A stretch of 64,000 nucleotides of DNA from Myxococcota bacterium (GCA_036012755.1 DASCPX010000179.1:78566-142565), one strand, 5' to 3'. Shown: positions 25,405 through 52,322, counted from the first letter of the stretch. Translations and numbers: made by a program. Notes: generated from the sequence alone by a model not told the origin.

Positions 25405-26931
25405 ATGGCCTCGCCCCTCGACAGACCTCCGCAGGGGCAGACCCTGGCGCTCGTGTCCCTCTACGACATCGAGAACAACGCCGTGCGTCAGCTCGCCGCC
25501 GCGGTGCGCGAGCAGGGTCGACGGGTCGTGGAGGTCTACTTCAAGGACTGGAAGAACAACCACCTCGAGGAGCCGACCGAGTACGAGCTCCAACAGCTCG
25601 CCGAGCTCCTCGAGCGCGAGGGTGTCGGTCTCATCGGCATCTCCCTGCGCGCCAGCGCTTATGAGCGCATCGCCGGCATGGTCACCACCCGCCTGCGCCG
25701 ACTCGGGCGCCCGATCGTCCTCGGCGGCTGGCACGTCACGGTGCGGCCCGAGCGCTGCGACGGCATGGCCGCGGCGCTCTGCCTCGGCGAGGCGGACGTG
25801 GCCTTTCCCCGCTTCGTCGAGGCGTGGTTCACGGGAGGGGACTGGCGCGGCTGCCCCAGCATGCGCTTCGGAGGCACGCAGAACCCGCTGGAGCCCCTGG
25901 TCGAGGACCTCGACTCCCTGCCCTGGCGGGACTACGCGAGCGAGGACAAGTGGGTGCTGTCGAGGGGCTCCGTCGCCCGCGGAGACCCGATGGCCGCCGA
26001 CCCGCTCTACCAGGTGATGTGCAGCCACGGCTGCATCCAGAAGTGCTCCTTCTGCCACAACTCCTTCGACACCGGAGCCGAGGGGCCGCGGCTGCGCTTC
26101 CGCAGCGTCGACAGCGTCCTGGCCGAGCTCGCCGAGCGTCGGCGCCTCAACCCGAGCATCCGCCGCGTGCGCTTCGACGACGAGGTCTTTGGCCTGTCCA
26201 GGAGCTGGCTGCGCGAGTTCGCCGAGCGCTATCCGGAGGAGGTCGGACTGCCCTTCGACATCCTCACCGAGCCCACGGTGGTCAACGAGGAGTACGTGGA
26301 GCTCATCACGGCCGCCGGCGCCCGGGTGGTCCACATGGGCATCCAGTCCAACGAGCCCGTCAACCGGGAGCGGCTCGGACGCCGCGCCGACCGGGAGACG
26401 ACGATGCGAGCGGTGCAGCTGCTCACCGCGGCGGGCCTCTACATCCGCTACCTCTGCATGGTGGACGTGCCGGGCACCACGTCCGACGACCAACGGAGCC
26501 TCTTCCGCTTCCTGCAAGAGGTGCCCAAGCCCTACGACCTCTACCTCTTCAGCCTCACCTGGTTCCCCGGGAGCAAGATGGTCGAGGACATGCTGGAGCG
26601 CGGCGAGCTCGACCCGAGCCAGGTCGAGGGCACGGCGACCAAGACCTTCTCCCAGTACCGCGTGGACCTTGGCTGGCCTCGCTCTCCAGAGGACACCTGG
26701 TGGCTCGCCCTGATGGTCCTCCAGGCCAGCCAGACCATGCCGAACGGCGTGCTGCGACGGATCATGGAGAGCGACTTCAGCAAGGAGTCCCCTCGCCACC
26801 TGGTGCTGGCTGCCCACGCGGCGACCCTGGTGAAGACGGCCCGCATCGCCAACCGCATGAGGCGCGACGGGGAGCTCACCGCGACCCTGGTGAGACGGTG
26901 GTGGAACCCCCAGCAGATGATCACGATGTAG
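25405..26931 (+). CDS. B12-binding-domain radical SAM enzyme (paralog A)
   Basis: The N-terminal domain is Rossmann-like and resembles a cobalamin-binding domain. CIQKCSFC is a CX3CX2C motif. Alignable over its full length with 40302..41831. Confidence 0.8.
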   Translation: MASPLDRPPQGQTLALVSLYDIENNAVRQLAAAVREQGRRVVEVYFKDWKNNHLEEPTEYELQQLAELLEREGVGLIGISLRASAYERIAGMVTTRLRRLGRPIVLGGWHVTVRPERCDGMAAALCLGEADVAFPRFVEAWFTGGDWRGCPSMRFGGTQNPLEPLVEDLDSLPWRDYASEDKWVLSRGSVARGDPMAADPLYQVMCSHGCIQKCSFCHNSFDTGAEGPRLRFRSVDSVLAELAERRRLNPSIRRVRFDDEVFGLSRSWLREFAERYPEEVGLPFDILTEPTVVNEEYVELITAAGARVVHMGIQSNEPVNRERLGRRADRETTMRAVQLLTAAGLYIRYLCMVDVPGTTSDDQRSLFRFLQEVPKPYDLYLFSLTWFPGSKMVEDMLERGELDPSQVEGTATKTFSQYRVDLGWPRSPEDTWWLALMVLQASQTMPNGVLRRIMESDFSKESPRHLVLAAHAATLVKTARIANRMRRDGELTATLVRRWWNPQQMITM

Positions 26932-26977: not shown

Positions 26978-27772
26978 ATGTTCCTGTTGATGCCCCTGGC
27001 GTGCACACCAACAGATGAGCCGAGACCGTCGGTGGTGCCCGAGGCGGAGGCGACCACGGTCTGCTACTCGCTAGAGAAGAATGAGGACGACGCGACCACA
27101 GAGTTGTGGCGGATCGACCTCGCCACGGCCGAGCACGACGTCCTCTCCACCTTCGAACCGGGATTCGAACCATGGGGGTCGCACGGTCTCCAGCGCGTGG
27201 GAGACCGGTTCATGGGCTTCGATTACTACTCCGACCTCCACATCTTCGACCTGTCGTCGGGAATCCAGGAGACCGACGAGCGGGATCTGGACTACAGCGT
27301 GATGGTCAGCCACGCTGGCGAGGATCTTCGCGTTGTCCGCACAGAGGGGATCGACCAACGGCTCTGCTCCTACGCTGGCCCCGAAGACCTGTTGGCTGGC
27401 ACGGACCAGGGCTGCGTGGTCCTGGAACTGCTCTTTGGCACCCGCTTCACGTTGCACGAGGGGCTGCTCTACTCGACCTGGCACTCCACCAATGAGTTCA
27501 CGACCAGCGACGCGGTCACCGGAGAGAACCTGGGGACGACCGACCTCGAGAACTGGGACACCTGGGTCTGGGGGCTGAGCGTCGCCGACGGGAAGCTCCA
27601 CGTGGTAGACGACGGCCGCAACTCGGGGGAGTACAACATCCTCATCGGCCTGTTCGACCTGGAGGGCGGGCGAATCGACACCGTCGGCGTCCGGAACGCA
27701 CACTGGGGGTCTGAGCATCTCGGCGGCTTGTGGTGCCGCGAAGAAGACCCTCAGCTCGACTCCGCACCCTGA
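26978..27772 (+). CDS. Lipoprotein, unknown function
   Basis: N-terminus MFLLMPLACTPTDEP. 264-aa ORF with no recognisable motif. Confidence 0.55.
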   Translation: MFLLMPLACTPTDEPRPSVVPEAEATTVCYSLEKNEDDATTELWRIDLATAEHDVLSTFEPGFEPWGSHGLQRVGDRFMGFDYYSDLHIFDLSSGIQETDERDLDYSVMVSHAGEDLRVVRTEGIDQRLCSYAGPEDLLAGTDQGCVVLELLFGTRFTLHEGLLYSTWHSTNEFTTSDAVTGENLGTTDLENWDTWVWGLSVADGKLHVVDDGRNSGEYNILIGLFDLEGGRIDTVGVRNAHWGSEHLGGLWCREEDPQLDSAP

Positions 27773-27824
27773 TCAGCGAGCGTCCGCGACGGCCTCTGAG
27801 CTCGTCCAGGGCTGACCGCGTCGG

Positions 27825-28402
27825 CTACACCAAGGCCTTCTTGCTCGCGTAGTCATCGAGCGCCGCACGCAGCGGGCCCTCCGCTGGCCACTGTTCGGGT
27901 CCGGCCGCCATCAGCGCGGCCACAGCCTGGTCGATCCACTCGGACGAGGCGCTCTCGAGCTGCCTCGCCGCGTTCTTTCGCTCCTGTATGACCTGGCCCG
28001 GGCCGCCCGCGGGCATGGCCTCCAGACCCAGCTTCGTGGCGAGCCCCTGGCCCGCCGCATCTCGGGCTTGATGGCGTTGAACCCGGTCTCGCAGAACAGG
28101 GCCCAGTCATCCTCGACCTCCAGCACCACGTCGCCGAGGTGCCAGCGGGAGACCTCGCACTCGGGCTCCGGCCAGTCCACGGCGGCACTGTCGTGGGAGG
28201 CACTGTCGTGGGAGGCACTGTCGTGGGAGGCACTGTCGTGGGAGGCACTGTCGTGGGAGGCACTGTCGTGGGAGGCACTGTCGTACGAGTCGGAGTCGCC
28301 ACCAGAGTCCCCGATCTCCACGCCGGTGTCGCACTCCGCGCCGGGGTCGCCGGCGATCTGGCGCGGATCGCCGCAGGCGAGGAGGACGACTGGGATGAGC
28401 AT
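27825..28402 (-). pseudogene. SHDSA-repeat lipoprotein, apparently frameshifted
   Basis: MLIPVVLLAC...(SHDSA)x7...FCETGFNAIKPE is followed by Arg-rich junk in the same frame. A coherent continuation (AAGQGLATKLGLEAMPAGGPGQVIQERK...) lies in another frame. The junction is at about 28050-28062. Confidence 0.5.
28181..28285 (-). repeat. 7 x 15-bp in-frame tandem repeat (ggaggcactgtcgtg) encoding SHDSA
   Basis: Seven consecutive 15-bp units run from 28181 to 28285. The first and last units each carry one substitution. Confidence 0.9.
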
Positions 28403-28434
28403 GGACTCACGCTACGGTCGACCGACCCGCCAGG

Positions 28435-28761
28435 TCACCGTCGCGCCGATGTCGTCGTGCGTTCGGACCGCCTGGACCGCCTCGACCGAAGCCCCGCGAA
28501 CAAGACCAGGACGAGAGCGCCGGAGCTGCCGCAGCCTCCCTCCGGCACCCCCTCGGCACCACCGTAGAGGAGGTAGGCTGCGCCGGTGAAGTCGCTGTCG
28601 CCCACCCTGTCGACGCCTACGAGCACGTCGTCGAAGCCATCGCGGTCGAAGTCGCCAGCGGTGACGAGGCTGGAGCCGAACTGGTCATGGGCGACACCGT
28701 CCGAAGCCAGGATCTGCTCCGCGGTCCGCCACGTCGTCCCTAGCAGCAATCCGACGAGCAC
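28435..28761 (-). CDS. Mini-protein with one FG-GAP repeat and a MYXO-CTERM-like tail (possibly a gene remnant)
   Basis: FGSSLVTAGDFDRDGFDDVLVG...GAAYLLYGG is followed by GGCGSSGALVLVLFAGLRSRRSRR. The GTG at 28761 is the first usable start. Confidence 0.4.
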   Translation of the reverse strand: MLVGLLLGTTWRTAEQILASDGVAHDQFGSSLVTAGDFDRDGFDDVLVGVDRVGDSDFTGAAYLLYGGAEGVPEGGCGSSGALVLVLFAGLRSRRSRRSERTTTSARR

Positions 28762-28836
28762 GCGCTCTCCCTGTCCCAAGCTACACCGGCCAGGCCGCGA
28801 CTGTGACGGATCGGCATCTCGAGCATCCCAACGGGG

Positions 28837-29853
28837 ATGACCCGATCTCGCAAGCTCGTGATGGCCAGCGTGGTGACGGTGCTCTTGCTGGCCGCAGGCG
28901 AGGGAGTCGCCCAGCTGGTGGAGCGGATGCTGCCGCCCCGAACGCTCCCCCTGCCGACACAGAGCTGCGATGGGCAGTGCCTGGAGGGAGCAGCCTCGCT
29001 GCCCCCCCGACCCGACCTCGTGCCCCGGGAGGGCGGCCACGGCTGGCTCTTCGAGCCGAACACGCGGACCATGCAGGGGGTCCTCTGCGACATCAACGGC
29101 CTGGGCCTCCGAGGCAAGGACCCGGAGCCCCGAGTCCCCGGAGAGCTCCGTCTCGTCAGCGTCGGGGACTCCTCGGCCTTCGGCTACGGGGTGGAGGAGG
29201 ACGAGGTCTTCCTGTCGGTGGCCGCCGCCGCCCTCGAGTCCCGGCTCGGCCGGCGGGTGACACCCATGAACGCCGCGATCCCGGGCCACGCCGCGAAGCA
29301 CTCGCTGGCAATCGTCAAGGACCTCGGCGAAGACCTCGACCCGGACTGGCTGGTCATCACCAACATCTGGTCCGACCTCTACCACCAGACGAACCTGGCG
29401 CCGGAGCGCTCGCCATCGGCCGCGTATCGAATGGCCAAGCGGCTGTTGACCCCCCTCCTCCCACCGCGAACCATCGGCTGGCTGGAGCCCGACCAGGGGC
29501 ACGGTCAGCCGGGGCTGGGCCGCGAGCCGCGCTCCGACCTCGTGGACTACCAGCGCAACCTCCACGCGATGGCCGAGCTCGCCGAAGAGCGCGGCGTGCG
29601 CTCGCTGTTCTTGCTGCTCCCAGCCCCGATGGACCTCGAGAGCCAGCCGGTGCCTGGCTGGATCGCGGACTACCGCGCCGTGATGCGGGGGGTGGCCGAG
29701 GACGCGGGAGCGCCGCTGGTGGAGGGACCGGAGGCGTTGAAGGCCGCCGATCTCGGCCCCGAGGGCTTCTTCGACAACGTGCACCCCTCCGGCCCGACGC
29801 ACCGGGCCCTCGGCGAGGCCCTGGCGGAGATCCTGGCCGCAGAACTGGACTGA
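28837..29853 (+). CDS. SGNH/GDSL-family hydrolase with an N-terminal membrane anchor
   Basis: LVSVGDSSAFGYG is block I and FFDNVHPS is block V (DxxH). TM segment LVMASVVTVLLLAAG. Confidence 0.75.
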   Translation: MTRSRKLVMASVVTVLLLAAGEGVAQLVERMLPPRTLPLPTQSCDGQCLEGAASLPPRPDLVPREGGHGWLFEPNTRTMQGVLCDINGLGLRGKDPEPRVPGELRLVSVGDSSAFGYGVEEDEVFLSVAAAALESRLGRRVTPMNAAIPGHAAKHSLAIVKDLGEDLDPDWLVITNIWSDLYHQTNLAPERSPSAAYRMAKRLLTPLLPPRTIGWLEPDQGHGQPGLGREPRSDLVDYQRNLHAMAELAEERGVRSLFLLLPAPMDLESQPVPGWIADYRAVMRGVAEDAGAPLVEGPEALKAADLGPEGFFDNVHPSGPTHRALGEALAEILAAELD

Positions 29854-29884
29854 GCCGCAAGGCCCAACGGGATAGACGGCGCCG

Positions 29885-30151
29885 GTGACCCGGGTGGAAC
29901 TGAAGCAGAGTCTGAAGGAGATGATCGTCGAGGTCTGCGATCTCGACATCGAGCCCGGGCAGATCACGGACGACGAGCGGCTCATCAACGGGGAGGGCGA
30001 AGTCGACCTCGGGAGCCTCGATGCTGTCGAGATCGCCGCTGCCATCGACTACGAGTACGGGGTGCGCATCAAGGACCTCTCGGCCGCCAAGTCGGTCTTC
30101 CGCTCGGTCGACTCCCTCGCGGAGCACATCGCCACGACGAAGGGATGGTGA
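29885..30151 (+). CDS. Acyl carrier protein (DarC-like)
   Basis: 88 aa. DLGSLDAVEIAAAIDYEYG is the phosphopantetheine attachment-type helix II. Overlaps the KS start. Confidence 0.75.
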   Translation: MTRVELKQSLKEMIVEVCDLDIEPGQITDDERLINGEGEVDLGSLDAVEIAAAIDYEYGVRIKDLSAAKSVFRSVDSLAEHIATTKGW

Positions 30152-31260
30152 GGGTCGCGCTCAGCGGCTGGGGCTCCATCTCGGCCCTTGGCTGCTCCAA
30201 CGACGAGGGGGTGGCCGGACTCCGCGCAGGCCACCGGGGGCTCGGCTTCGCCCAGCGCTCACCGCACCTCCTCCGGGCCGAGGAGATCCTCGTAGCAGAG
30301 GCCCCCTTCGACGTCCCCATCGAGCGACGCGCTCGGGAGATGGTCGCCGTCGCGGTCGACGAAGCCCTGGCGATGGCCCCGAAGTCCCCAGGGATCGTAG
30401 GGGTCTTCGCCGGCACGACCGGGGGTTTCTTCGTGGACGCGGAGGTGGATCTCCTGTTCGCCCGAGTGGAGGATCCGGAGGCCATCCCCGACTTCGGTCA
30501 GCGCGGCCAGGGCGAGCTGGCCACGGTCGTGGCCAGACAGGCAGGCGCCCTCGGCCCGGTCCTCACCTTCTGCACCGCCTGCACCTCCAGCGCCGCCGCC
30601 ATGGCCAGCGCTGCTGCCCACCTGCGCGCGGGGACCTGCAGCCGAGCGGTGGTGGTCGGCTTCGACCTGCTGTCCAGCCTGACGGTCCAGGGCTTCAAGA
30701 GCCTGATGCTCTGCGATCCCGAGCCCTGCCGCCCCTTCGACACCACCCGGGCCGGGCTGCAGGTCGGCGAAGGCTGCGGGGTCGTGATCCTCGACGCCGA
30801 GGGTGAGGGGCCGTTCGTAGTCCGGGGCTCCTCCAATCGCATCGACCCCTCCCACCTGACCGCCAGCGCCACGGACGGCTCGACGGTCGAGCGGGTCATC
30901 CGAGAGGCCGTGGGCGACGACGAGATCGTCACCATCAAGGCCCACGGCACCGGCACGAGGGACAACGATCTCGCAGAGGGCCGGGGGGTCGCGAGGGCCT
31001 TCGGCGACCCGCCGCCCTTCGCCTCCTTGAAGGGCAGCCTCGGCCACACCCTCGGCGCCGCCGGAGCCCTGGAGACGGCGCTCTGGCTGGGCTGCCTGCG
31101 AGCGGGCTTCTGCCCGCCTTCCCGGGGGTTTTGCGAGCTCGACCCGGACATCGGCGTCTCTCCGATCACACAGCAGATCCCTGCCCTATCGGGGGCTCAC
31201 CTCTTCAACGCCTTCGGCTTCGGCGGCTCCTGCGTCGCGATGGTGATCGCCGATGCCTAG
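30145..31260 (+). CDS. Beta-ketoacyl-ACP synthase (KS, FabF/FabB-like, short form)
   Basis: TACTSSAAAMA carries the active Cys. KAHGTGT and GSLGHTLGAAG carry the His residues. Confidence 0.85.
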   Translation: MVRVALSGWGSISALGCSNDEGVAGLRAGHRGLGFAQRSPHLLRAEEILVAEAPFDVPIERRAREMVAVAVDEALAMAPKSPGIVGVFAGTTGGFFVDAEVDLLFARVEDPEAIPDFGQRGQGELATVVARQAGALGPVLTFCTACTSSAAAMASAAAHLRAGTCSRAVVVGFDLLSSLTVQGFKSLMLCDPEPCRPFDTTRAGLQVGEGCGVVILDAEGEGPFVVRGSSNRIDPSHLTASATDGSTVERVIREAVGDDEIVTIKAHGTGTRDNDLAEGRGVARAFGDPPPFASLKGSLGHTLGAAGALETALWLGCLRAGFCPPSRGFCELDPDIGVSPITQQIPALSGAHLFNAFGFGGSCVAMVIADA

Positions 31261-32008
31261 CGTCGGCATCCACGGGTGGGCCTCGGTCACCACTGCCAAG
31301 GGACACAAGGAGCGCTTCGGTCACACCTTCAGGCGCATCGGCCCCTTCGTGAAGATCGCCCAGCTCGGCGCCACCGACGCGGTCGAGTCGACCCCAGAGG
31401 GCCTCGGCGTCTTCCTCGGGACAGGGCTCGGAAACACAGCCGACATCGTGCCCCTGATGACGAGCGTGCTCGATCCGCACCGGCCGCGCTGCTCGCCCAT
31501 GGCCTTCGCTGGCTGCGTGGGCAACTCGGCGGCCTTCTTCGTGGCGGCGGTCCTGGGCAGTACCGGACCCAGCGTGACCGTCTCCCAAGAGGAGCTGTCC
31601 TTCGAGGCGGCGCTGCTGGAGGCCGTGATCGCGATGGACGAGGGGCTGCAATGGGCGCTCGTCGGGGGTGTCGACGTGATGAGCGGCAGCCCGGTAGACC
31701 AGCGTCACCGCGTGAACGCAGTCGGGGTCGAGGGAGAGCTCGGCGAGGGCGCCGCCTTCATCCTGCTCGGACCGCGCGAGGGCGCCACCGCCACAGTCGA
31801 CCGGGTCGAGCTCGGCACCTTCCCCCTGGACCCGGCGGACCGGACGCCGCTGTACGGCTGGCGCATGGACCATCCACAGCGCGAGCGCCGCCTGGTCCCC
31901 GTCGCGGCGGGACTGCGCATCGTCGAGGCCCTGGACCACCCGGGAAGGTACGTGCACCTCAACCGCTCCGCCGGGGGCCTCTCCGCGCGGGTGTGCTTCA
32001 CGCGATGA
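31253..32008 (+). CDS. KS-like partner lacking the active-site Cys (chain-length-factor-like)
   Basis: KS N-terminal-like fold signatures (FLGTGLGN, VGGVDVMS). No C-H-H triad. 8-nt overlap with the KS gene. Confidence 0.65.
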   Translation: MPSVGIHGWASVTTAKGHKERFGHTFRRIGPFVKIAQLGATDAVESTPEGLGVFLGTGLGNTADIVPLMTSVLDPHRPRCSPMAFAGCVGNSAAFFVAAVLGSTGPSVTVSQEELSFEAALLEAVIAMDEGLQWALVGGVDVMSGSPVDQRHRVNAVGVEGELGEGAAFILLGPREGATATVDRVELGTFPLDPADRTPLYGWRMDHPQRERRLVPVAAGLRIVEALDHPGRYVHLNRSAGGLSARVCFTR

Positions 32009-32847
32009 AGCGCGTCCTGGTCCTGTGGTGGTCTCAGAGCGGACAGCTCGAGGGCTGCATGCGGGCCTTCTGCGAGCCCCTCGAAGCCAGCGGCGTCGAG
32101 CTGGTCTACCGCCGAGTCGAGCCAGCCGTCGCCTACCCCTTTCCATGGAGCGTGAGCGCCTTCTTCGGCCAGTTCCCCGAGACCTTCCTCGAAGAGGGCG
32201 TCGACATCGACTTCGAGCCCCCGGAGGGCGACTTCGACCTCGTGATCGTGGCCTCGCAGGTGTGGTTCCTCAAGCCCTCTCCGCCCTTCTGTCGCCTGTT
32301 GTCCCGACACCCGGCGCTCTTCGCGGGCCGCCGGGTCCTGACCCTGGTCGCCTGTCGCAACATGTGGATTCGCGGCTGGGGCCGCCTCGCGGAGCGCATC
32401 CGTGAAGCCGGCGGCGACATCACCGACCGGGTCGTCGCGGTGCACTCGGGCTCTGTTCTGGCCAGCTACTTCACGACCCTGGCCTGGATGCTGACGGGCA
32501 AGCGTGACGCCCTGAAGCCGCTCGGAAAGGCCGAGATCGCAGCGCAGACGGTCGAGAGGGTCAGGGGCCTGGGCGAGCGCTTCGCCAGCGGCGAGCACGT
32601 CGACGAGGCGCCCATCTCGCTCACCCACGCCCTCGGCGAGCAGCTCGTCGGACGCACGTTCTTCCCTCTTCTGGCGGCCATCGGTCATCTCACGCCGCGA
32701 CAGGGCATCCTCCGAACACTGTTCGCGTGGTTCCAGATGAGCTTCACGATCTCGGCGGTCCTGACCCTGCTGGGGCCCTGCATGCTGGTCCGCTTGCTGT
32801 TCGGGCGGTGGGTCGACCCGTGGCTCCGGGAGCAGGCACGGTTATGA
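32005..32847 (+). CDS. DarA-like protein (dialkylresorcinol pathway partner of DarB); flavodoxin-like N-terminus and hydrophobic C-terminus
   Basis: Starts MKRVLVLWWSQSGQL. It sits immediately upstream of the FabH-like condensing enzyme, as in darAB loci. ATGA overlap with the upstream gene. Confidence 0.5.
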   Translation: MKRVLVLWWSQSGQLEGCMRAFCEPLEASGVELVYRRVEPAVAYPFPWSVSAFFGQFPETFLEEGVDIDFEPPEGDFDLVIVASQVWFLKPSPPFCRLLSRHPALFAGRRVLTLVACRNMWIRGWGRLAERIREAGGDITDRVVAVHSGSVLASYFTTLAWMLTGKRDALKPLGKAEIAAQTVERVRGLGERFASGEHVDEAPISLTHALGEQLVGRTFFPLLAAIGHLTPRQGILRTLFAWFQMSFTISAVLTLLGPCMLVRLLFGRWVDPWLREQARL

Positions 32848-32850
32848 GCG

Positions 32851-33987
32851 GTGGTGCCCGCGTTCATCACGCAGACCGGAAGCTACCTGCCCGGACCGCC
32901 CCTCGACAATGACGCCATGGAAGCGCGTCTGGGCTTCCTGGATGATCGCTCCCCGCGGATCAAGCGTCGGATCCTCAGGAACAACGGCATCCAGACCCGC
33001 CACTACGCTCTCGATGAAGAGGGCAGGCCAACGGAGAGCAGCGCGAGCATGGCCGCCAAGGCCATCCGCGAGGCCACCCGCGACATCGATCTGACCACGA
33101 TCGACCTGCTCGCCTGCGGCACGAGCATCGTCGAGCACATCGTGCCCGGCCATGCCTCCAGCGTGCACGGAGAGCTTGGGTCCCATCCCTGCGAGATCGT
33201 CACCACTGGCGGTGTCTGCTGCGCGGGAATGACCGCCCTGAAGTACGCGACGATGGCGGTCGGTGGCGGACACGCCAGGCGAGCCGTCGCCAGCGGCAGC
33301 GAACGCACCAGCGCCTTCCTGCGCCAGGCGCACTTCCAGGCGGAGCTTGCAGCGCGCGGCGTCGACGAGGACGAGCCCTATGTCGGCTTCGACCAGTCCT
33401 TCTTGCGCTGGATGCTCTCCGACGGCGCCGGGGCCATGCTCGTCGAGAACGAGCCCCGTCCCAACGGGCTCTCTCTGCGCGTCGAGTGGATCGAGCTCAC
33501 GAGCTACGCCAACGAGCTCCCCACCTGCATGTACATGGGCGCGGAGCGCACACCATCCGGTGGCCTCACGAGCATGTGGGACCTCGACTCGATGTCCTCG
33601 ACGCTGACGAAGGGGCTGTTGAACCTCCACCAGGACGTGAAGCTGCTCGGCCAGCACGTGGTGGTCGCCGGCGCCAACGCGCTGTTGCGGGCAGCGGAGA
33701 AACACGGCCTCGCCCCCTCCGATGTCGACTACCTGCTGCCTCACTACAGCTCCGAGTTCTTCCGCGACAAGACCCACGCGCAGCTCGACAGCGTCGGCTT
33801 CCCGATCCCCACCTCGAAGTGGCGGAGCAACCTGGTAGAGCGCGGAAACACAGGCTGCGCGAGCATCTTCGTGATGCTCGACGACTTCCTCCGATCAGGC
33901 GAGCTCCAGCCGGGCCAGACCGTGTTGTTGCTGGTGCCGGAGAGCGGGCGCTTCTCCGCTGCCTGGGCGCTGCTCAGGGCCCAATGA
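32851..33987 (+). CDS. KAS III (FabH)-like condensing enzyme, DarB-like
   Basis: GGVCCAGMTAL (Cys), LLPHYSS (His) and RGNTGCASIF (Asn) make up a FabH-type triad. Confidence 0.75.
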   Translation: MVPAFITQTGSYLPGPPLDNDAMEARLGFLDDRSPRIKRRILRNNGIQTRHYALDEEGRPTESSASMAAKAIREATRDIDLTTIDLLACGTSIVEHIVPGHASSVHGELGSHPCEIVTTGGVCCAGMTALKYATMAVGGGHARRAVASGSERTSAFLRQAHFQAELAARGVDEDEPYVGFDQSFLRWMLSDGAGAMLVENEPRPNGLSLRVEWIELTSYANELPTCMYMGAERTPSGGLTSMWDLDSMSSTLTKGLLNLHQDVKLLGQHVVVAGANALLRAAEKHGLAPSDVDYLLPHYSSEFFRDKTHAQLDSVGFPIPTSKWRSNLVERGNTGCASIFVMLDDFLRSGELQPGQTVLLLVPESGRFSAAWALLRAQ

Positions 33988-34391
33988 AGTCCGACGACGT
34001 GCCCCAGGACCCGGGCGCCTGCTACGAGGGGCAGCTCCGCCGGCTGACCTACGCCGTCGGCGAGGACGGCACCTACAAGGGAGTCCCGAGCATCGGATGG
34101 GAGGCCGAGATCGCTGCGACACAGGTGGCGACCGAGCGGGCCAACGCGCGCATCCAGAAGGCCTGGGAGGCGGCGCGCGAGGGCCGGACCTCCACTCTCG
34201 GCTACCACATGGTGGCGGCCCAGATGGACCTGATGCTCCTGTCCAACGAGACGGGGCTGTGGCGCTGGCGCATCAAGCGTCACCTTCGCAGCCTGCCCGC
34301 CTCGATCGACCTGCACTCCCGCTACGCAGACGCGCTGGGCTTGAGCGTCGAGGCTCTTGGGGGCCTACCCGAGACCCCAGAGCTGCTTTGA
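33984..34391 (+). CDS. Hypothetical protein with an HTH-like C-terminal half
   Basis: ATGA overlap with the DarB-like gene. The segment MDLMLLSNETGLWRWRIKRHL...YADALGLSVEAL resembles XRE-type HTH spacing. Confidence 0.5.
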   Translation: MKSDDVPQDPGACYEGQLRRLTYAVGEDGTYKGVPSIGWEAEIAATQVATERANARIQKAWEAAREGRTSTLGYHMVAAQMDLMLLSNETGLWRWRIKRHLRSLPASIDLHSRYADALGLSVEALGGLPETPELL

Positions 34392-35410
34392 GCTTCGAGC
34401 ACCTCCACGCCGGACACTGCGAGTCCGGGGTCACCGCCGCGCTCCTGCGTCACCGGGGCCTCGCGCTCTCAGAGCCCATGCTCTTCGGCATCGGCAGCGG
34501 CATCTTCTTCGCCCACTTCAGCTTCTCGAGGGTGATGGGCCAGCCGCTGACGACCTTTCGGAGCTTCCCTGGCGCCATCTTCAAGAAGGCCTGCAAGCGC
34601 CTGGGTGTCGGCATCGAGCGAGCGACCTTCAGAGACCGCCGGGCGGGCGCCTCGGCGCTGGATGCGGCGCTGGTGAAGGGCACGCCGGTGGGGCTGCAGG
34701 TGAACATCTACTGGCTGCCCTACATCCCCGGACCGATGCGGGTCCACTTCAACGGCCACAACCTCATCGTGCTCGAGAAGACAGGCGACACCTACCTCAT
34801 CAGCGATCCGGTGATGGAGGAGGTCCACGAGTGCCCGGAGTCAGCGCTGGTCCGGGCCCGCTTCAGCGGGACCAACGCCCTGTTGGGCAGCGGCTTGATG
34901 TACTACCCGACCCACATCGACCCCGAGCCCGACCTCCGCCGAGCCACGGAACAGGGCCTGGCCGAGGTCTGCACGCGCATGCGCAGGATCCCCTTCATCC
35001 TTCCCTGGTTCGGTGTGCGCGGTGTCCGTCACCTCGCAGGCCAGCTCGAGGCCTGGCCGCGGCGCCTCGGCGAAGAGGATGCGCGCGAGTGGCTGGCGGG
35101 ACTGGTGCGGATGCAGGAAGAGATCGGCACCGGGGGCGCGGGCTTCCGCTACCTCTTCGCGGCCTTCCTGCAGGAGGCCGGCGAGCTCCTGTCGTGGTCG
35201 GCGCTGTCAGCCATGTCCGATCAGGCCACCGACCTCGGCGACCAGTGGCGACGCTTCGCGCTGCACGCCTCGCGAAGGGCCCGCGGCAAGCCCGACAAGG
35301 AGTGGTCGGAGCTCGCCGAGCTGCTGCTTGCGCTGGCGGAGGCCGAGGACCGCCTCTTCGCGGACCTCGACGCCGTGAGGGTGGCAGGGGCGCCTCAGCT
35401 CACTGGCTAG
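34388..35410 (+). CDS. BtrH_N/DUF4872-like protein (putative ACP-dependent acyltransferase, Cys-protease fold)
   Basis: TTG at 34388 overlaps the upstream stop (TTGA). HLHAGHCESGVTAALLRHRGLALSEPMLFGIGSG matches the BtrH N-terminal pattern. Confidence 0.6.
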   Translation: MSFEHLHAGHCESGVTAALLRHRGLALSEPMLFGIGSGIFFAHFSFSRVMGQPLTTFRSFPGAIFKKACKRLGVGIERATFRDRRAGASALDAALVKGTPVGLQVNIYWLPYIPGPMRVHFNGHNLIVLEKTGDTYLISDPVMEEVHECPESALVRARFSGTNALLGSGLMYYPTHIDPEPDLRRATEQGLAEVCTRMRRIPFILPWFGVRGVRHLAGQLEAWPRRLGEEDAREWLAGLVRMQEEIGTGGAGFRYLFAAFLQEAGELLSWSALSAMSDQATDLGDQWRRFALHASRRARGKPDKEWSELAELLLALAEAEDRLFADLDAVRVAGAPQLTG

Positions 35411-36231
35411 CTCCCGAAGACGCCCACCTGGTGGCCGGAGACACCACCGACGCCGTCGAACATCATCGTGCCGGCAGCGTAGGGCGTGCCGCGGATGGAG
35501 ACGTCCTCGTAGACCTCTGCGCGGACCAGGCCGCCGTCGCTGCGGAGGTCGACCTTCGTGCCCCTGGGCAACAGCACGTCACCGGGGAAGCGATTGCCCC
35601 GGGCCAGGGTGCAGCTGGCGACGTTGCCGTTGTCGTGGAGCAGGGCAGCGGAGAGGCAGGGCACCCCCGCGACGGTGACGGACTCCGCGGGAGAGGCGAG
35701 GTCGCCGAGCACGACCTCCGCCAGGTTGCCGTTTTCGTGGAAGGTCGCCCGAGCGCCTCTGCGCAAGCTGAAGTCACCGACGCCGTAGGGCTCGGACAGG
35801 ACACAGCTCCACCGCCCGTCGGCGTGGGCCTCTGCGGTCTTGGCCTCCCTGCACGGCACGCCCCGGATGAACATGTTGGCAGCCAGGATGACGCGCACGC
35901 CGGTGACAGCGCCGCTGGCTTCGTGGACGATGGACTCTCGCGAGCCGAAGTCGAGCGCCTCGAGCTCGTCGAGGGGGGGCAAGAGCACGACCTCCTCGCC
36001 AGCTTCGGCCACCTCGCCGCCGTCTTGTCCGCTGCCGTCCTCGTCGAGTTCGAGCTCGTCGGGGGTCCAGACCTCCTCGTAGTCCACGTCGGGGTCAAAG
36101 ACGCGCATTTGCGGGACGCCGAGCGGATCGCCCTCCTCGGCCGGTGGTGCAGCCCCCTCGGCGAGGGGGTCGGACGCGGCGGACTCGGTGTCGGAGCCGC
36201 AGGCGAAGGCCAGGAGGAGAGTGAGGACCAT
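35407..36231 (-). CDS. Lipoprotein with MORN-variant-like repeats
   Basis: N-terminus MVLTLLLAFACGSD. FHENGNLAEVVL and LHDNGNVASCTL are repeats. Confidence 0.6.
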   Translation of the reverse strand: MVLTLLLAFACGSDTESAASDPLAEGAAPPAEEGDPLGVPQMRVFDPDVDYEEVWTPDELELDEDGSGQDGGEVAEAGEEVVLLPPLDELEALDFGSRESIVHEASGAVTGVRVILAANMFIRGVPCREAKTAEAHADGRWSCVLSEPYGVGDFSLRRGARATFHENGNLAEVVLGDLASPAESVTVAGVPCLSAALLHDNGNVASCTLARGNRFPGDVLLPRGTKVDLRSDGGLVRAEVYEDVSIRGTPYAAGTMMFDGVGGVSGHQVGVFGS

Positions 36232-36258
36232 GTCCAGAGCCTACCTGCCCCGAGACCG

Positions 36259-36996
36259 CTACCGCACGCGCCGTTGTATGAGCATCCAGGATCGCTCGAC
36301 GGCCATGACGAACTTGCGGAGCCTCTCTCTCTCCAGATCTCCGCCCTGGAGGATCTCGAATCCGTGCACGTCTCCGTGCACTGCAAGGCAGTGGACCGCG
36401 ACGAGGACGCTCTGTTCTTCGTACCGGATCTGCAGGGAGCCCTCTGCCCCGACTGCAAGAGGATTCCCCAGCAACTGCACGCCGACGCCACCCAGGGAGA
36501 GGTCGAGCAGGGTGCCCGCGCGAGGGCCGTCGACGTCCAGTTCGATCTCTACGCCGAGACCTTTGACCGGGATACGGAAGGCGCGCCGGGCCTGGACCAC
36601 CAGGAAGCGCTCGGGCTTATCGAGCATGAGGACGGGGCCGGGGCCGCTGGGCTCGACGCTGTGGACCCGGGCGTGAAACGCCACCGAGCGCCCATCGCGA
36701 ATGAGCTGAACCAGGACGAGGTGGCCCTGGGCCGGCCGATCCGCGAGCGAGTGTGCCTGGACGGTGACGCTGAGGTGGCGCTCGCCCAGCGCGGAGAGGC
36801 GACCGGGGACCACGCTCGGAGGATCGCCGAGCAACATGAGGACGGCGTCGCCCTCGACGACAGCATCCGAGAGCAGGTCCTCGCCAGTGGGCTCACGGCT
36901 TCTCCGGGTGGCTGGCCGTCTCGCGGCTGGCTTGCTGCCGAACATGATCTCTCCGGACTCACCCATCTCATCGGCTTCGGCGGTCCGAAACTTCAT
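36259..36996 (-). CDS. PilZ-domain protein (c-di-GMP receptor type)
   Basis: QARRAFRIPV is the RxxxR motif and DLSLGGVGV is the D/NxSxxG motif. Confidence 0.7.
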   Translation of the reverse strand: MKFRTAEADEMGESGEIMFGSKPAARRPATRRSREPTGEDLLSDAVVEGDAVLMLLGDPPSVVPGRLSALGERHLSVTVQAHSLADRPAQGHLVLVQLIRDGRSVAFHARVHSVEPSGPGPVLMLDKPERFLVVQARRAFRIPVKGLGVEIELDVDGPRAGTLLDLSLGGVGVQLLGNPLAVGAEGSLQIRYEEQSVLVAVHCLAVHGDVHGFEILQGGDLERERLRKFVMAVERSWMLIQRRVR

Positions 36997-40243: not shown

Positions 40244-40301
40244 GCCGGCATCCTACAGCCCGCAACGAAAACTGCTTGCGCCCACTATGCTCAGGGAGCC
40301 A

Positions 40302-41831
40302 ATGCGTCGCCTGAAGGTCGCCATCATCAGCCTCTACGCCCTGGAGAACAACGGGGTGCGACACGTCGCCTCGTCGCTCAGAGAGGCGGGCTTCCAGGTG
40401 ACCGAGATCTACTTCAAGGACTGGGTCAACAACCGCTTCCCATGGCCGGCCGAGGTCGAGGTCCAGAACCTCCTGTCGCTGCTGCGAGACCGAGGGATCG
40501 ACGTGGCCGGGATCTCGGTGCGCGCCAGCGCTTTCCACCGGATGGCGAAGTACCTCACCGAGCGGGTGCGCAGTGCCCTCGGGCTCCCGGTCCTGTGGGG
40601 CGGCATGCACCCGACCTTCCTGCCCGAGATGTGCATCGAGATCGCCGACTACATCTCGATCGGGGAGACCGACCAGATCGTGAAGGAGTTCTTCACCCGA
40701 CTCGATGAAGGCGTCTCCGTCCACGACTGCCCGAGCTTCTGGGTTCGCGAGGGCGACACCGTCTACCGCAACGACGTCGCCCCCCTCGTCGAGCTCGACG
40801 ACGTGCCCTTCCGGGACTTCCACACCCGGGACGACAAGTTCCACATCGCGGGCGACAAGGTCTCCGTCGGCGACCCCTTCATCGACAACCCCGAGTACAC
40901 GCTCCTGGCATCACGTGGCTGCCCCTACTGGACCTGCACCTTCTGCAGCAACACGCTCACCAAGCCGCTCTACGAGGGCAAGGGGAAGGGCTACCGCGTC
41001 CGCTCGGTAGAGCACATCATCCAGGAGATGGAGTACGCGACGAAGATCTGCAAGGACATCAAGGTCGTCCGCTTCGACGACGAGGTCTTCCCGATCCGTG
41101 CGGAATGGATCGAGGAGTTCGCCCAGAAGTGGCCTGCCCGCGTGGGCATCCCCTTCGAGGTCCTGGTCGACCCGCGCATGGTCCGCCTCGAGCCGCTGCG
41201 CCTGTTGAAGACCGCCGGGCTGCGGGCTCTCTGCATGGGCATCCAGGCGACCGAGCGGGTGAACCAGGAGTTCTACAACCGCAACACGACGAACCAGCAG
41301 ATCCTGGACGCGCAGGAGGTCTTCCGGTCCGTCGGCGTCACCAGCAACCTGCAGATCATCTGGGACGACCCCTACTCGACCCAGCAGGACAAGGACGACC
41401 TCTTCCATCTGGTCATGGAGCTCCAGCGCCCCTTCGAGCTCTTCCTCTTCGGCCTGACGATCTACCCCAACACCCACATGGCTCGACGCCTGCTGCGCGA
41501 GGGGCGCATCACAGAGGGACACATCGAGGGGGTGAACACCCACGCCTTCGAGCAGTTCCGCGTGGACCTCGACTACCCGCGACCGAAGGAGGACACCCGC
41601 TGGCTGGCGCTCTTCGTCCTCTGCAACAAGAGCTTCCTGCCAAAGGACCTCATCTGGAAGCTCTACACCTCGGAGCGCTTCAAGGCCAACCCCGCGCCGC
41701 TGGTCCAGCTGGCCCAGGCGGTGAACCTCGTCAAGATGGCGGGTGTGGCTGGCGAGATGACGCTGCGAGGCGAGATGACGCCGCTGTTGATCAAGCGCTG
41801 GGTGAACCCCGACTCCCTGGTGACGATGTGA
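40302..41831 (+). CDS. B12-binding-domain radical SAM enzyme (paralog B)
   Basis: GGGAG lies 6 nt before the ATG at 40302. The cluster motif CPYWTCTFC has CX4CX2C spacing. Shares SLY..ENN.VR, YFKDW.NN, VRFDDEVF and RW.NP....TM with paralog A. Confidence 0.8.
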   Translation: MRRLKVAIISLYALENNGVRHVASSLREAGFQVTEIYFKDWVNNRFPWPAEVEVQNLLSLLRDRGIDVAGISVRASAFHRMAKYLTERVRSALGLPVLWGGMHPTFLPEMCIEIADYISIGETDQIVKEFFTRLDEGVSVHDCPSFWVREGDTVYRNDVAPLVELDDVPFRDFHTRDDKFHIAGDKVSVGDPFIDNPEYTLLASRGCPYWTCTFCSNTLTKPLYEGKGKGYRVRSVEHIIQEMEYATKICKDIKVVRFDDEVFPIRAEWIEEFAQKWPARVGIPFEVLVDPRMVRLEPLRLLKTAGLRALCMGIQATERVNQEFYNRNTTNQQILDAQEVFRSVGVTSNLQIIWDDPYSTQQDKDDLFHLVMELQRPFELFLFGLTIYPNTHMARRLLREGRITEGHIEGVNTHAFEQFRVDLDYPRPKEDTRWLALFVLCNKSFLPKDLIWKLYTSERFKANPAPLVQLAQAVNLVKMAGVAGEMTLRGEMTPLLIKRWVNPDSLVTM

Positions 41832-42886
41832 GCCGACCGCTTGCCCGCGCGCGAGCATGGAAGAACATCGCCGTGTCCGCGTCGATGCGGAGGGTGCGCC
41901 CCGAGTGGGTGCCGCCCCCACACGCGGCCCACATCATCACTACCTTCAAGTGCAACCTCAAGTGCATCGGCTGCGGCTCGTGGGAGGTCCGAGACCACGA
42001 GGACCTGACCCTGGACCAGTGGCTCCCGGTCTTCAAGCAGCTCGAGTCCCTGGACATCGTCAAGATCCTCGGCGGCGAGCCCTTCGTGCGAAAGGACATC
42101 GTCGGCCTGCTGGCCGCCGTCCGGGACGAGATCGATCCCTACATCCTCCAGCTCGGCACCAACGGGATGCTGACGGACCGGATCGTCGAGGCACTCGACA
42201 CAGTCGGCTGGCCGGGCCTGCAGCTCCGCATCTCCGTTGACGGCACCGCGGCGGTCCACGACCGGATCCGCGGCGTCGAGGGCAGCTGGGACCAGGTCGA
42301 CCACACGGTGCGAAAGGTCGCCGAGCTGAAACAAAAGCGCGGCTTCCAGTTCGGCATCAACTTCGCGGTGACCGACGACTCGCTCGGCGACTTCGAGGCG
42401 ATGGTGGAGTACGCCGAGAGCGTCGGCGCCGACCTGATCCCGGGGGTGAACGTCGACCCCTTCCTGGTGGGGACCACGCCCCCGGAAATCCGCCAGCAGG
42501 AGATCATCCTCTTGTCCAACGCTGATGAGGGGCTACGACGGATCGAGGACCACCGTGTCGGCACACGGACCGAGCTGCCTCTCGTCGATCACCTGCTGTC
42601 GAGGTTCATGACGAGGCGTACCTTCGAGCGCCAGATCGCCAGGAATGATCGGAGCTTCCCTTGCCGGGAGCTGCGCGACCTGATCTACATGCTGCCCAAC
42701 GGCGACGTGGTGCGCTGTGGCATGGACCACGAACCGGTCGGCAACGTGCTGGAGTCGTCCATCGAGGAGATCTGGTACGGCGATCGGGTAGAGCCCCACC
42801 GCAGGAAGGTCGAGGCCTGCCCTGGCTGCATGCAGGCATCCGTACAGATCATGTCCAGGCTCTACGGTGGCTGTCTCGACGCCTGA
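41828..42886 (+). CDS. Radical SAM enzyme with a SPASM/twitch-type C-terminal Cys cluster
   Basis: FKCNLKCIGCGSW is a CX3CX2C motif. The C-terminus has CRELRD...VVRCG...ACPGCMQ. GTG at 41828 overlaps the upstream stop (alternative ATG at 41885). Confidence 0.75.
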   Translation: MSRPLARARAWKNIAVSASMRRVRPEWVPPPHAAHIITTFKCNLKCIGCGSWEVRDHEDLTLDQWLPVFKQLESLDIVKILGGEPFVRKDIVGLLAAVRDEIDPYILQLGTNGMLTDRIVEALDTVGWPGLQLRISVDGTAAVHDRIRGVEGSWDQVDHTVRKVAELKQKRGFQFGINFAVTDDSLGDFEAMVEYAESVGADLIPGVNVDPFLVGTTPPEIRQQEIILLSNADEGLRRIEDHRVGTRTELPLVDHLLSRFMTRRTFERQIARNDRSFPCRELRDLIYMLPNGDVVRCGMDHEPVGNVLESSIEEIWYGDRVEPHRRKVEACPGCMQASVQIMSRLYGGCLDA

Positions 42887-42910
42887 TCGGGCTGCTATGG
42901 TCTCGGACCG

Positions 42911-43384
42911 ATGACAGGAGCACCCGTGAAGAAGGCCAACCTCTCGAAGCGCTTTCTCGCTGCGCTGGTGGACGGCGTCATCAGCAACGGCATCATGACG
43001 GCGATCGGCACACTGCTCCCTGGCATCGGAAACATCGTGATGTTCGCGCTCAGCCTGATCCCGACCGTCTTCGAGGACGACGTCCTGGGCACACCCGGGG
43101 TGAGCATCGGACGCAAGGCCTTCGGCCAGCGCCTGGTCAACCTGGACGGTACCCCCGTCGACCTCAAGACCTCGATCAAACGCAACGCGATCAACGCCGG
43201 GATGGTCGTCATCGGTGTCTTCACGCTGTTCATCCCCCAGTGGATCGACATCGGGCTGGTCCTGTTCCGCGACGGTCGCCGCATCTCGGACCTCCTCATG
43301 GGCACACGCGTCGCCGACCTCGAGGAGACTCCTCAGCTCACCGTCGATCCGCCCGGGGACGATGCCCCGGATGAAACCGACTGA
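42911..43384 (+). CDS. RDD-family membrane protein
   Basis: KRFLAALVDGVISN, then GRKAFGQRLV, then RRISDLLMGTRV, with 3 TM segments. Confidence 0.7.
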   Translation: MTGAPVKKANLSKRFLAALVDGVISNGIMTAIGTLLPGIGNIVMFALSLIPTVFEDDVLGTPGVSIGRKAFGQRLVNLDGTPVDLKTSIKRNAINAGMVVIGVFTLFIPQWIDIGLVLFRDGRRISDLLMGTRVADLEETPQLTVDPPGDDAPDETD

Positions 43385-48635: not shown

Positions 48636-48652
48636 TTCGGCAGTCTACACCT

Positions 48653-52260: not shown

Positions 52261-52322
52261 TGGACCTCCGGTCCCCGCAGAACCCTACCGCGATACGGCC
52301 TCGCGCGGGCTACCCTCGTCCA

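What the first reader, a model, noticed from the sequence alone, without database searches (positions are those of the whole stretch)
28837..35410. Eight-gene, translationally coupled DarA/DarB-type (dialkylresorcinol/cyclohexanedione) cluster expanded with its own KS/CLF pair
The gene order is:
1. SGNH hydrolase (GDS and DxxH blocks)
2. ACP
3. KS with an intact C-H-H triad
4. KS-like partner without the Cys (CLF-like)
5. A 280-aa flavodoxin-like/hydrophobic-tail protein in the DarA position (MKRVLVLWWSQSGQL)
6. FabH-like condensing enzyme (C/H/N triad) in the DarB position
7. A 135-aa protein
8. A BtrH-like protein

From 29885 to 35410 the junctions are a 7-nt overlap, an 8-nt overlap, ATGA, a 3-nt gap, ATGA and TTGA. 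This points to a single operon.

DarB head-to-head condensation of two fatty-acyl units, followed by DarA aromatisation, gives 2,5-dialkylresorcinols. These are known as flexirubin building blocks, antibiotics and LuxR-solo signals.

No KR, DH or ER genes are present, so the KS/CLF pair would make beta-keto or short polyketide precursors rather than an aryl polyene. I am not aware of a characterised dar locus with this composition.
Basis: partly seen in the sequence, partly recalled or inferred. Interest (0 to 1): 0.7.

Follow-up and report, generated by a model that had tools for sequence, protein, structure and literature searches.

The report
Common seven-gene dialkylresorcinol (dar) gene cassette
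This is a real, tightly packed operon for making dialkylresorcinol-type lipids in an uncultured Myxococcota bacterium, but the same seven-gene set occurs in many bacterial phyla and has been listed in print, so it is a new member of a known kind.

Summary

The identifications also hold:
- g6 is a StlD/DarB-family ketosynthase, not FabH.
- g5 is a DarA/StlC homologue with a flavodoxin-like fold and a helical tail.
- g7 and g8 pass NCBIfam's curated DarG-family and DarH (BtrH-related acyltransferase) models.
- g3 and g4 form a ketosynthase plus Cys-less partner, closest to the aryl-polyene ApeO/ApeC type.
- g2 is an acyl carrier protein (ACP).

The novelty claim does not hold. I looked at 48 genome loci with a DarA homologue and at least 8 kb of flank on each side. 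Of these, 32 carry DarG and DarH, and 27 of those 32 also carry the KS/CLF pair. None of the 16 loci lacking DarG and DarH has the pair. The published Azoarcus BH72 dar table already lists an ACP, a ketosynthase, a gene after it, a conserved hypothetical and a BtrH-like gene.

The SGNH hydrolase (g1) has no homologue at any other dar locus examined, including a relative about 80% identical in DNA. The conserved unit is therefore seven genes, 29885-35410.

The likely product is a 2,5-dialkylresorcinol or cyclohexanedione. The roles of KS/CLF, DarG and DarH are inferred, not shown. Interest is low.

The parts
28837..29853 (+). g1: SGNH/GDSL hydrolase with a hydrophobic N-terminus. The alternative start at 28861 gives 330 aa. 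It is a neighbour of the cassette, not a conserved member.
   Evidence: Pfam Lipase_GDSL_2 43 bits against cut-off 32.9. GDS and DxxH blocks are visible in the translation. No homologue in any of the 80 DarA loci, nor in L004, L005 or the close relative L086.
29885..30151 (+). g2: acyl carrier protein (DarC-like), 88 aa
   Evidence: NCBIfam phosphopantetheine-binding/ACP models E 2e-11 to 2e-8, all below their cut-offs. Pfam PP-binding 19.6 bits, just under its 20.8 cut-off. Ser44 is conserved in at least 95% of 68 dar-linked ACP sequences.
30145..31260 (+). g3: type II ketosynthase with a Cys-His-His triad, 371 aa
   Evidence: Pfam ketoacyl-synt and Ketoacyl-synt_C. Best solved relatives are ApeO of X. 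doucetiae (6QSP_A, E 8e-32), A. baumannii ApeO (7F28_B) and 6KXD_A (PDB identities from PMC8358021). NF006618 scores 191.5 bits, below its 407 cut-off.
31253..32008 (+). g4: truncated KS-fold partner (CLF-like), 251 aa, with Glu in place of the active-site Cys
   Evidence: Pfam Ketoacyl-synt_2 25.5 bits against cut-off 25. It aligns to FabF residues around 100-164 with ...SQEELSF... where FabF has ...TACAxG.... A profile of dar-linked CLFs hits the FabF N-terminal half at E 4e-11, 6KXD_B at 9e-6 and ApeC 6QSP_B at 0.007.
32005..32847 (+). g5: DarA/StlC-family aromatase homologue, 280 aa, with a flavodoxin-like domain and long C-terminal hydrophobic helices
   Evidence: Homologues are annotated as dialkylresorcinol condensing enzyme or StlC. 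32% identity and E 4e-44 to StlC. It shares the invariant columns, including the SQSGQ, PFPW, FPE and CRNMW motifs. AlphaFold model pLDDT 93.2, with Foldseek hits to WrbA and flavodoxins at E about 1e-6 to 1e-5.
32851..33987 (+). g6: StlD/DarB-family cyclising ketosynthase, 377-378 aa
   Evidence: NF005293 462.6 bits against cut-off 450. The narrower resorcinol_DarB model NF053539 scores 430.7 bits, below its 550 cut-off. StlD 5GK0 E 7.7e-100. Cys122, His297 and Asn332 are conserved in 77 homologues.
33984..34391 (+). g7: DarG-family protein, 135 aa, with a beta-hairpin, a long helix and a five-helix XRE-like domain
   Evidence: NF053536 121.1 bits against cut-off 70. More than 1200 homologues. 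AlphaFold model pLDDT 90.5. Foldseek matches to Cro/C1/SinR-type helix-turn-helix domains are weak but consistent: E 0.01-0.2, rmsd about 2 A over 56-66 residues.
34388..35410 (+). g8: DarH, a BtrH-related acyltransferase, 340 aa
   Evidence: NF053550 386.8 bits against cut-off 300. Pfam BtrH_N 150.5 bits and DUF4872 150.8 bits. His10-Cys11-Glu12, His124, Asn125 and Asp140 are conserved in at least 95% of 52 homologues.

Best explanation
Genes g2-g8 (29885-35410) are one translationally coupled operon. It encodes the widespread 'extended dar' cassette for a 2,5-dialkylresorcinol or its cyclohexanedione precursor.

Steps that rest on homology to characterised enzymes:
- DarB (g6) joins a beta-ketoacyl thioester and an alpha,beta-unsaturated acyl thioester. 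It does this by Michael addition plus Claisen cyclisation, giving a carboxy-cyclohexanedione.
- DarA (g5) is a flavodoxin-like protein with a hydrophobic helical tail. It aromatises that intermediate, with decarboxylation, to the resorcinol.

Steps that are inferred:
- The dedicated ACP (g2) is malonylated by the housekeeping FabD.
- The KS/CLF heterodimer (g3/g4) extends a fatty-acyl starter once, producing a beta-ketoacyl-ACP pool reserved for DarB. No ketoreductase or dehydratase is encoded in the cassette, which is why one extension is the simplest reading.
- DarH (g8) is a papain-like Cys enzyme related to BtrH. It moves an acyl group between the ACP and an acceptor. It may esterify the resorcinol hydroxyl, or load or unload the ACP.
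- DarG (g7) carries an XRE-like helical domain and acts with DarH as an adaptor or regulator.

The SGNH hydrolase (g1) is an adjacent gene specific to this lineage. Whether it takes part in the pathway is uncertain.
For: - Family assignments above curated cut-offs for DarB-family, DarG-family and DarH.
- g6 scores 338 bits to StlD against at most 55 bits to FabH, and its Cys/His/Asn triad is conserved.
- g5 is homologous to StlC and to annotated DarA proteins, with a confident flavodoxin-like model.
- g3 is closest to ApeO-type ketosynthases, and g4 lacks the active-site Cys.
- Co-occurrence: among 48 DarA loci with full flanks, 32 have DarG and DarH. Of those, 27 have KS+CLF and 26 also have the ACP. 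None of the 16 loci without DarG and DarH has KS/CLF.
- The same collinear gene order occurs in L005 and L054.
- Synteny with other loci stops exactly at g2 and at g8.
- DarB and DarA chemistry is taken from the review PMC6836626.
Against: - No experiment exists on this locus, and I found no published biochemistry for the dar-linked KS/CLF, DarG or DarH.
- g6 falls below the cut-off of the narrower resorcinol_DarB model (430.7 bits against 550). g7 falls below the flexirubin_DarG equivalog cut-off (101.2 bits against 170).
- g5 is only 30-34% identical to the rest of the DarA family, StlC included. It has a different, shorter C-terminus ending DPWL...RL, without the PSG motif.
- No curated DarA model exists to test g5 against.
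- DarAB alone suffice for resorcinol production in E. coli in published work, so the extra five genes may do something other than supply precursor.
Confidence: 0.8

Rival explanations
1. The cassette supplies the resorcinol half of a polyene-resorcinol ester pigment of the flexirubin or arcuflavin type. DarH would be the enzyme that transfers the ACP-bound acyl or polyene chain onto the resorcinol hydroxyl. The polyene genes would lie elsewhere in the genome.
For: DarG and DarH sit inside flexirubin-type loci of Bacteroidota (L025, L070). NCBIfam has a flexirubin_DarG model and names DarH an acyltransferase. In Azoarcus the dar and polyene loci are unlinked, and the free resorcinol was not detected in extracts (PMC3949708).
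Against: The window holds no other KS or ACP gene. Pfam scans of about 30 further window ORFs and the public gene calls around the cassette show nothing polyene-related. g7 falls below the flexirubin_DarG cut-off. The rest of the genome could not be searched.
Confidence: 0.25
2. KS/CLF works iteratively, borrowing the housekeeping FabG and FabZ. It would build the alpha,beta-unsaturated or a short polyene partner substrate of DarB, rather than the beta-keto partner.
For: The closest solved relatives of g3 are polyene-forming KS/CLF pairs: ApeO/ApeC and 6KXD. Several loci carry two distinct ACP-KS-CLF sets (L006, L014, L015, L054, L065, L078), which would fit one set per substrate.
Against: No KR or DH is encoded in the cassette, nor conserved beside it. 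The window has only one KS/CLF set.
Confidence: 0.2
3. The SGNH hydrolase is a genuine eighth member of the pathway, for example an esterase or acyltransferase that tailors or releases the product in this lineage.
For: It is on the same strand, only 31 nt upstream of the ACP gene, with no terminator-like site in the gap. It is conserved in the near-identical contigs L001-L003.
Against: It is absent from all 80 other DarA loci. It is also absent from L086, where the cassette DNA is about 80% identical and a different, unrelated 457-aa gene precedes the ACP. Its hydrophobic N-terminus suggests an exported or membrane-anchored protein.
Confidence: 0.2
4. The FabH-like and KS genes are spare fatty-acid synthase paralogues, and the locus makes only ordinary fatty acids.
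For: All condensing enzymes here belong to the thiolase superfamily shared with fatty-acid synthesis.
Against: g6 scores 70.8-93.2 bits on the FabH models (cut-offs 249-292) against 462.6 bits on StlD/DarB. The gene set co-occurs with DarA, DarG and DarH across phyla. The cassette has no KR, DH or ER.
Confidence: 0.02

Closest known systems
Azoarcus sp. BH72 dar cluster (darA-darK; arcuflavin resorcinol moiety), PMC3949708
   Same: It has darA, darB, a conserved hypothetical (darD), a BtrH-like gene (darE), an ACP (darC), a ketosynthase (darJ) and a following gene (darK). An Azoarcus MAG locus (L084) shows DarA, DarB, a 131-aa gene, BtrH_N/DUF4872, an ABC ATPase, an ABC permease and then an ACP. 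Its DarA, DarB, DarG, DarH and ACP are 39-48% identical to the window's.
   Different: Azoarcus has an ABC transporter (and in BH72 a toxin-antitoxin pair) between the BtrH-like gene and the ACP, and the ACP-KS genes follow DarH. The window has no transporter, and ACP-KS-CLF precede DarA. Gene names clash: NCBIfam's DarG and DarH correspond by position and domains to the paper's darD and darE. I did not test directly that darK is the CLF homologue; I infer it from L043, which has the same layout.
Pseudomonas aurantiaca darABC and Photorhabdus stlCDE (minimal DarA/DarB/ACP sets)
   Same: A DarB/StlD cyclising ketosynthase, a DarA/StlC aromatase and a dedicated ACP. g6 scores E 7.7e-100 to StlD, and g5 scores E 4e-44 to StlC.
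   Different: Those loci lack KS/CLF, DarG and DarH. Photorhabdus loci L044 and L048 show only DarA-DarB-ACP.
Aryl-polyene KS/CLF heterodimer ApeO-ApeC (PDB 6QSP, 7F28)
   Same: g3 is most similar to ApeO among solved structures. g4, like ApeC, is a short (about 240-250 aa) KS-fold protein without the catalytic Cys.
   Different: No KR, DH, aryl-starter or export genes accompany the pair here. g3 is well below the NF006618 cut-off (191.5 against 407). g4 matches ApeC only at E 0.007 with a family profile.
BtrH of butirosin biosynthesis (ACP-to-acceptor acyltransferase; function recalled from the literature, not re-read here)
   Same: g8 has the BtrH_N domain (150.5 bits) with a conserved His-Cys-Glu motif near the N-terminus.
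   Different: g8 also carries DUF4872 and belongs to the separate DarH family. Its donor and acceptor are unknown.

Membership tests
StlD/DarB cyclising ketosynthases | Scores above the curated cut-off of NCBIfam NF005293 | tested here: met
   462.6 bits against cut-off 450
StlD/DarB cyclising ketosynthases | Scores above the cut-off of the narrower resorcinol_DarB model NF053539 | tested here: not met
   430.7 bits against cut-off 550. It is a family member but not a close DarB orthologue by that model.
StlD/DarB cyclising ketosynthases | Closer to StlD than to housekeeping FabH, with a Cys-His-Asn triad | tested here: met
   337.8 bits to StlD 5GK0 against at most 54.8 bits to FabH structures. 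FabH models score 70.8-93.2 bits, below cut-offs of 249-292. Cys122, His297 and Asn332 are conserved.
StlD/DarB cyclising ketosynthases | Head-to-head condensation giving a carboxy-cyclohexanedione | not testable with these tools
   Needs an enzyme assay or expression with LC-MS.
DarA/StlC aromatases | Sequence homology to characterised StlC or DarA over the full length, with the family's invariant motifs | tested here: met
   32% identity, E 4e-44 to StlC. All 29 invariant columns are shared.
DarA/StlC aromatases | Match to a curated family model | not testable with these tools
   Neither Pfam nor NCBIfam reports a model, even for StlC itself.
DarA/StlC aromatases | Encoded next to a DarB homologue | tested here: met
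   g5 ends 3-6 nt before g6. 79 of the 80 sampled DarA loci have DarB adjacent.
DarG family (NCBIfam NF053536) | Scores above the curated cut-off | tested here: met
   121.1 bits against cut-off 70. The flexirubin_DarG equivalog NF053545 is not met (101.2 against 170).
DarH, BtrH-related acyltransferase (NCBIfam NF053550) | Scores above the curated cut-off, with BtrH_N and DUF4872 domains and a conserved Cys | tested here: met
   386.8 bits against cut-off 300. Both Pfam domains score about 150 bits. Cys11 is conserved.
Type II KS/CLF heterodimer (ApeO/ApeC-like) | An active KS with a Cys-His-His triad, followed by a KS-fold partner lacking the Cys | tested here: met
   The two genes overlap by 8 nt.
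Type II KS/CLF heterodimer (ApeO/ApeC-like) | Physical heterodimer and chain-length control | not testable with these tools
   Needs co-purification or a complex structure prediction.
Aryl-polyene, flexirubin or arcuflavin cluster | Accompanying KR, DH, aryl-starter and export genes | tested here: not met
   None among the eight genes or elsewhere in the 64-kb window.
Extended dar cassette (ACP, KS, CLF, DarA, DarB, DarG, DarH) | All seven families present and adjacent | tested here: met
   The window and L001-L003 have all seven. 26 of the 32 loci with DarG, DarH and full flanks have the ACP-KS-CLF triad within 10 kb.
Extended dar cassette (ACP, KS, CLF, DarA, DarB, DarG, DarH) | SGNH hydrolase as a conserved member | tested here: not met
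   No g1 homologue outside the near-identical contigs.

The most novel reading that the evidence does not exclude
The Myxococcota-type cassette may make a structurally new resorcinol or cyclohexanedione derivative rather than a plain dialkylresorcinol. The grounds are these:
- Its DarA clade is divergent (30-34% identity to the rest of the family, StlC included, with a different C-terminus).
- It has no transporter.
- Relatives carry an inserted FAD enzyme and an ABC/FtsX transporter.
- Here it is paired with a lineage-specific exported SGNH hydrolase.

In this reading, the tightly co-occurring five-gene accessory module (ACP, KS, CLF, DarG, DarH) performs a so far undescribed acyl-transfer step.
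Probability: 0.15. Interest if true: 0.45.

Novelty: new member of a known kind. Interest (0 to 1): 0.2.

Why it matters
For this window it matters little: it is one more instance of a very common gene cassette. The broader point is more useful. Five accessory genes (ACP, KS, CLF, DarG, DarH) travel with darAB in most sampled loci across at least five phyla. I found no published biochemistry for them in the searched literature. DarG and DarH have curated names but no demonstrated reaction. This compact, transporter-free, fully coupled seven-gene version (5.5 kb) would be a convenient construct for working out what that module does.

Tried and rejected
- Promoter and terminator scans over 27700-36400 gave nothing above the shuffled expectation. 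Operon boundaries therefore rest on gene spacing and synteny only.
- Pfam and NCBIfam gave no hit for g5, even at E 10. This turned out to be uninformative, because StlC and annotated DarA proteins get no hit either.
- g8 has no solved relative by sequence.
- g4 alone does not reach ApeC in the PDB. Only a 14-sequence profile does, and weakly.
- Literature searches for functional work on DarG, DarH, DUF4872 or dar-linked KS/CLF found only the Azoarcus gene table.
- I considered the flanking B12-binding radical SAM, SPASM and NmrA-like genes as cluster members. I rejected this because none is syntenic with any other dar locus, apart from one 25%-identity hit in L054.
- I rejected the housekeeping-FabH reading.

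Full report
**What is there.** The junctions from g2 to g8 are as described: a 7-nt overlap, an 8-nt overlap, ATGA, a 3-nt gap (6 nt with the ATG start used in the public gene call), ATGA and TTGA. The g5 protein is 100% identical to a protein annotated from an uncultured Myxococcota MAG. Contigs L001-L003 from public assemblies are 99.7-99.97% identical to this part of the window, and their independent gene calls agree.

**What the genes are.**
- g6 passes NCBIfam's StlD/DarB family model (462.6 bits, cut-off 450). It scores only 70.8-93.2 bits on the FabH models.
- Against solved structures, g6 scores 338 bits to the Photorhabdus ketosynthase StlD and at most 55 bits to any FabH. Its Cys/His/Asn residues are conserved in 77 homologues.
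- g5 has no Pfam or NCBIfam hit. That is because those libraries report no model even for StlC.
- By direct comparison g5 is 32% identical to the stilbene aromatase StlC (E 4e-44). It shares every invariant column of a 21-sequence DarA/StlC alignment, including the SQSGQ, PFPW, FPE and CRNMW motifs.
- The AlphaFold model of g5 (pLDDT 93.2) is a flavodoxin/WrbA-like domain followed by long helices.
- g7 passes the DarG-family model (121.1 bits against 70), and g8 passes the DarH 'BtrH-related acyltransferase' model (386.8 bits against 300). g8 has BtrH_N and DUF4872 domains and a conserved His-Cys-Glu motif.
- g3 is a ketosynthase with Cys, His and His in place. Its closest solved relatives are ApeO of the aryl-polyene KS/CLF heterodimers (6QSP, 7F28) and 6KXD (PDB identities confirmed in PMC8358021).
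- g4 is a 251-aa KS-fold protein that aligns to the N-terminal half of FabF, with Glu where the catalytic Cys should be.
- g2 is an ACP whose Ser44 is conserved in at least 95% of 68 dar-linked ACPs.
- g1 is an SGNH/GDSL hydrolase.

**How common the arrangement is.** I took the best 80 loci and tabulated homologues of g1-g8 with locally built profiles. Among the 48 loci with at least 8 kb on both sides of DarA:
- 47 have DarB.
- 32 have both DarG and DarH.
- Of those 32, 27 have a KS+CLF pair within 10 kb, and 26 also have the ACP.
- None of the 16 loci lacking DarG and DarH has a KS/CLF pair.

The loci come from Pseudomonadota, Campylobacterota, Desulfobacterota, Bacteroidota, Silvanigrellaceae and others. 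The window's exact collinear order recurs in L005 and L054. Other loci have ACP-KS-CLF convergent to, or downstream of, DarH. The window's KS groups with those of L004, L005 and L069, and next with the common dar-linked KS clade. One caveat applies: the 80 loci are those most similar to the query profile, so the fractions describe this sample and not all dar loci.

**Prior description.** The Azoarcus sp. BH72 dar cluster was tabulated in 2014 (PMC3949708). It lists darA (aromatase), darB (cyclase), darD (conserved hypothetical), darE (BtrH-like), an ABC transporter, darC (ACP), darJ (ketosynthase) and darK (hypothetical). That paper states the conserved dar cluster had been found in 89 strains. 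An Azoarcus MAG locus shows the same layout, with a 131-aa gene and a BtrH_N/DUF4872 gene directly after DarB. The NCBIfam names DarG and DarH therefore correspond to that paper's darD and darE. In the paper, 'darG' and 'darH' are a toxin-antitoxin pair.

**Limits of the unit.** Outside g2-g8, no window gene has a homologue in other dar loci. g1 has no homologue in any of the 80 loci, nor in L004 or L005. It is also absent from L086, whose cassette DNA is about 80% identical and whose ACP, KS, CLF and DarA proteins are 79-84% identical. There a different 457-aa gene precedes the ACP. A relative at about 48% DarA identity carries an FAD-type enzyme between the ACP and the KS, and an ABC/FtsX transporter between the CLF and DarA. 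The window's version is thus a compact form without a transporter. The window holds no other KS or ACP gene. Pfam scans of about 30 further window ORFs and the public gene calls around the cassette show only unrelated functions, with no polyene genes.

**Mechanism.** By homology with characterised systems, DarB condenses a beta-ketoacyl thioester and an alpha,beta-unsaturated acyl thioester into a carboxy-cyclohexanedione. DarA then aromatises it, with decarboxylation, to a dialkylresorcinol (review PMC6836626). The remaining steps are inferred:
- With no KR or DH in the cassette, the ACP and KS/CLF most simply supply a dedicated beta-ketoacyl-ACP.
- DarH is a papain-like Cys enzyme related to an ACP-dependent acyltransferase. 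It probably moves an acyl group to or from the ACP, possibly esterifying the resorcinol as in flexirubin and arcuflavin.
- DarG has a confident model (pLDDT 90.5) with a beta-hairpin, a long helix and a five-helix XRE-like domain. That fold also occurs as a non-DNA-binding domain in HppE and HEPD, so its role stays open.

I found no published experiments on these three components.

**Verdict.** This is a new member of a known and very widespread cassette, from a poorly sampled phylum, with a divergent DarA clade. Interest is low (0.2). The residual interest lies in the uncharacterised accessory module, which is a property of the whole family and not of this locus.

Noticed in passing
window 28184-28284: A perfect 15-nt tandem repeat (GGCACTGTCGTGGGA, 6.7 copies, 100% matches) lies about 550 nt upstream of g1, inside a minus-strand ORF (27853-28410). 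The otherwise 99.7-99.95% identical contig L001 is 60 nt longer between two flanking genes here. That equals four extra copies if the difference lies in the repeat, so the repeat may vary in copy number between assemblies.
   Followed up: partly
window 25405-26931 (+), about 40300-41831 (+), 41885-42886 (+): Two roughly 508-aa B12-binding radical SAM genes and a radical SAM/SPASM gene flank the dar cassette within 10 kb. An RDD-family gene follows at 42887-43384. They are not syntenic with other dar loci, and their function is unknown.
   Followed up: partly
L006, L014, L015, L054, L065, L078 (also L010, L012, L049): Several dar loci carry two different ACP-KS-CLF sets, one with a well-conserved CLF and one with a much more divergent CLF. 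This might mean one set per DarB substrate. The window has only one set.
   Followed up: partly
L016, L022, L027, L042 (Neisseria flavescens/subflava group): These loci have DarA-DarB-DarG but no detectable DarH or KS/CLF within 10 kb. Other Neisseria loci (L010, L012, L063) have the full set. This looks like natural partial loss of the accessory module.
   Followed up: no
window 52212-55822 (+): Two adjacent large genes encode proteins with 5-7 MopE-type putative copper-binding repeats, one of which also has a lectin-like domain. A SCO1/SenC gene lies upstream at 48312-49487.
   Followed up: no
window 2-535 (+): The window opens inside a thiolase gene (Thiolase_C, 132.6 bits). This explains the weak KS-profile hit there, and it is unrelated to the cassette.
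   Followed up: yes
window 35407-36231 (-) and 26978-27772 (+): The genes immediately flanking the cluster have no Pfam match and no homologue at other dar loci. They are a 274-aa gene convergent with g8, overlapping its stop by 4 nt, and a 264-aa upstream gene.
   Followed up: partly
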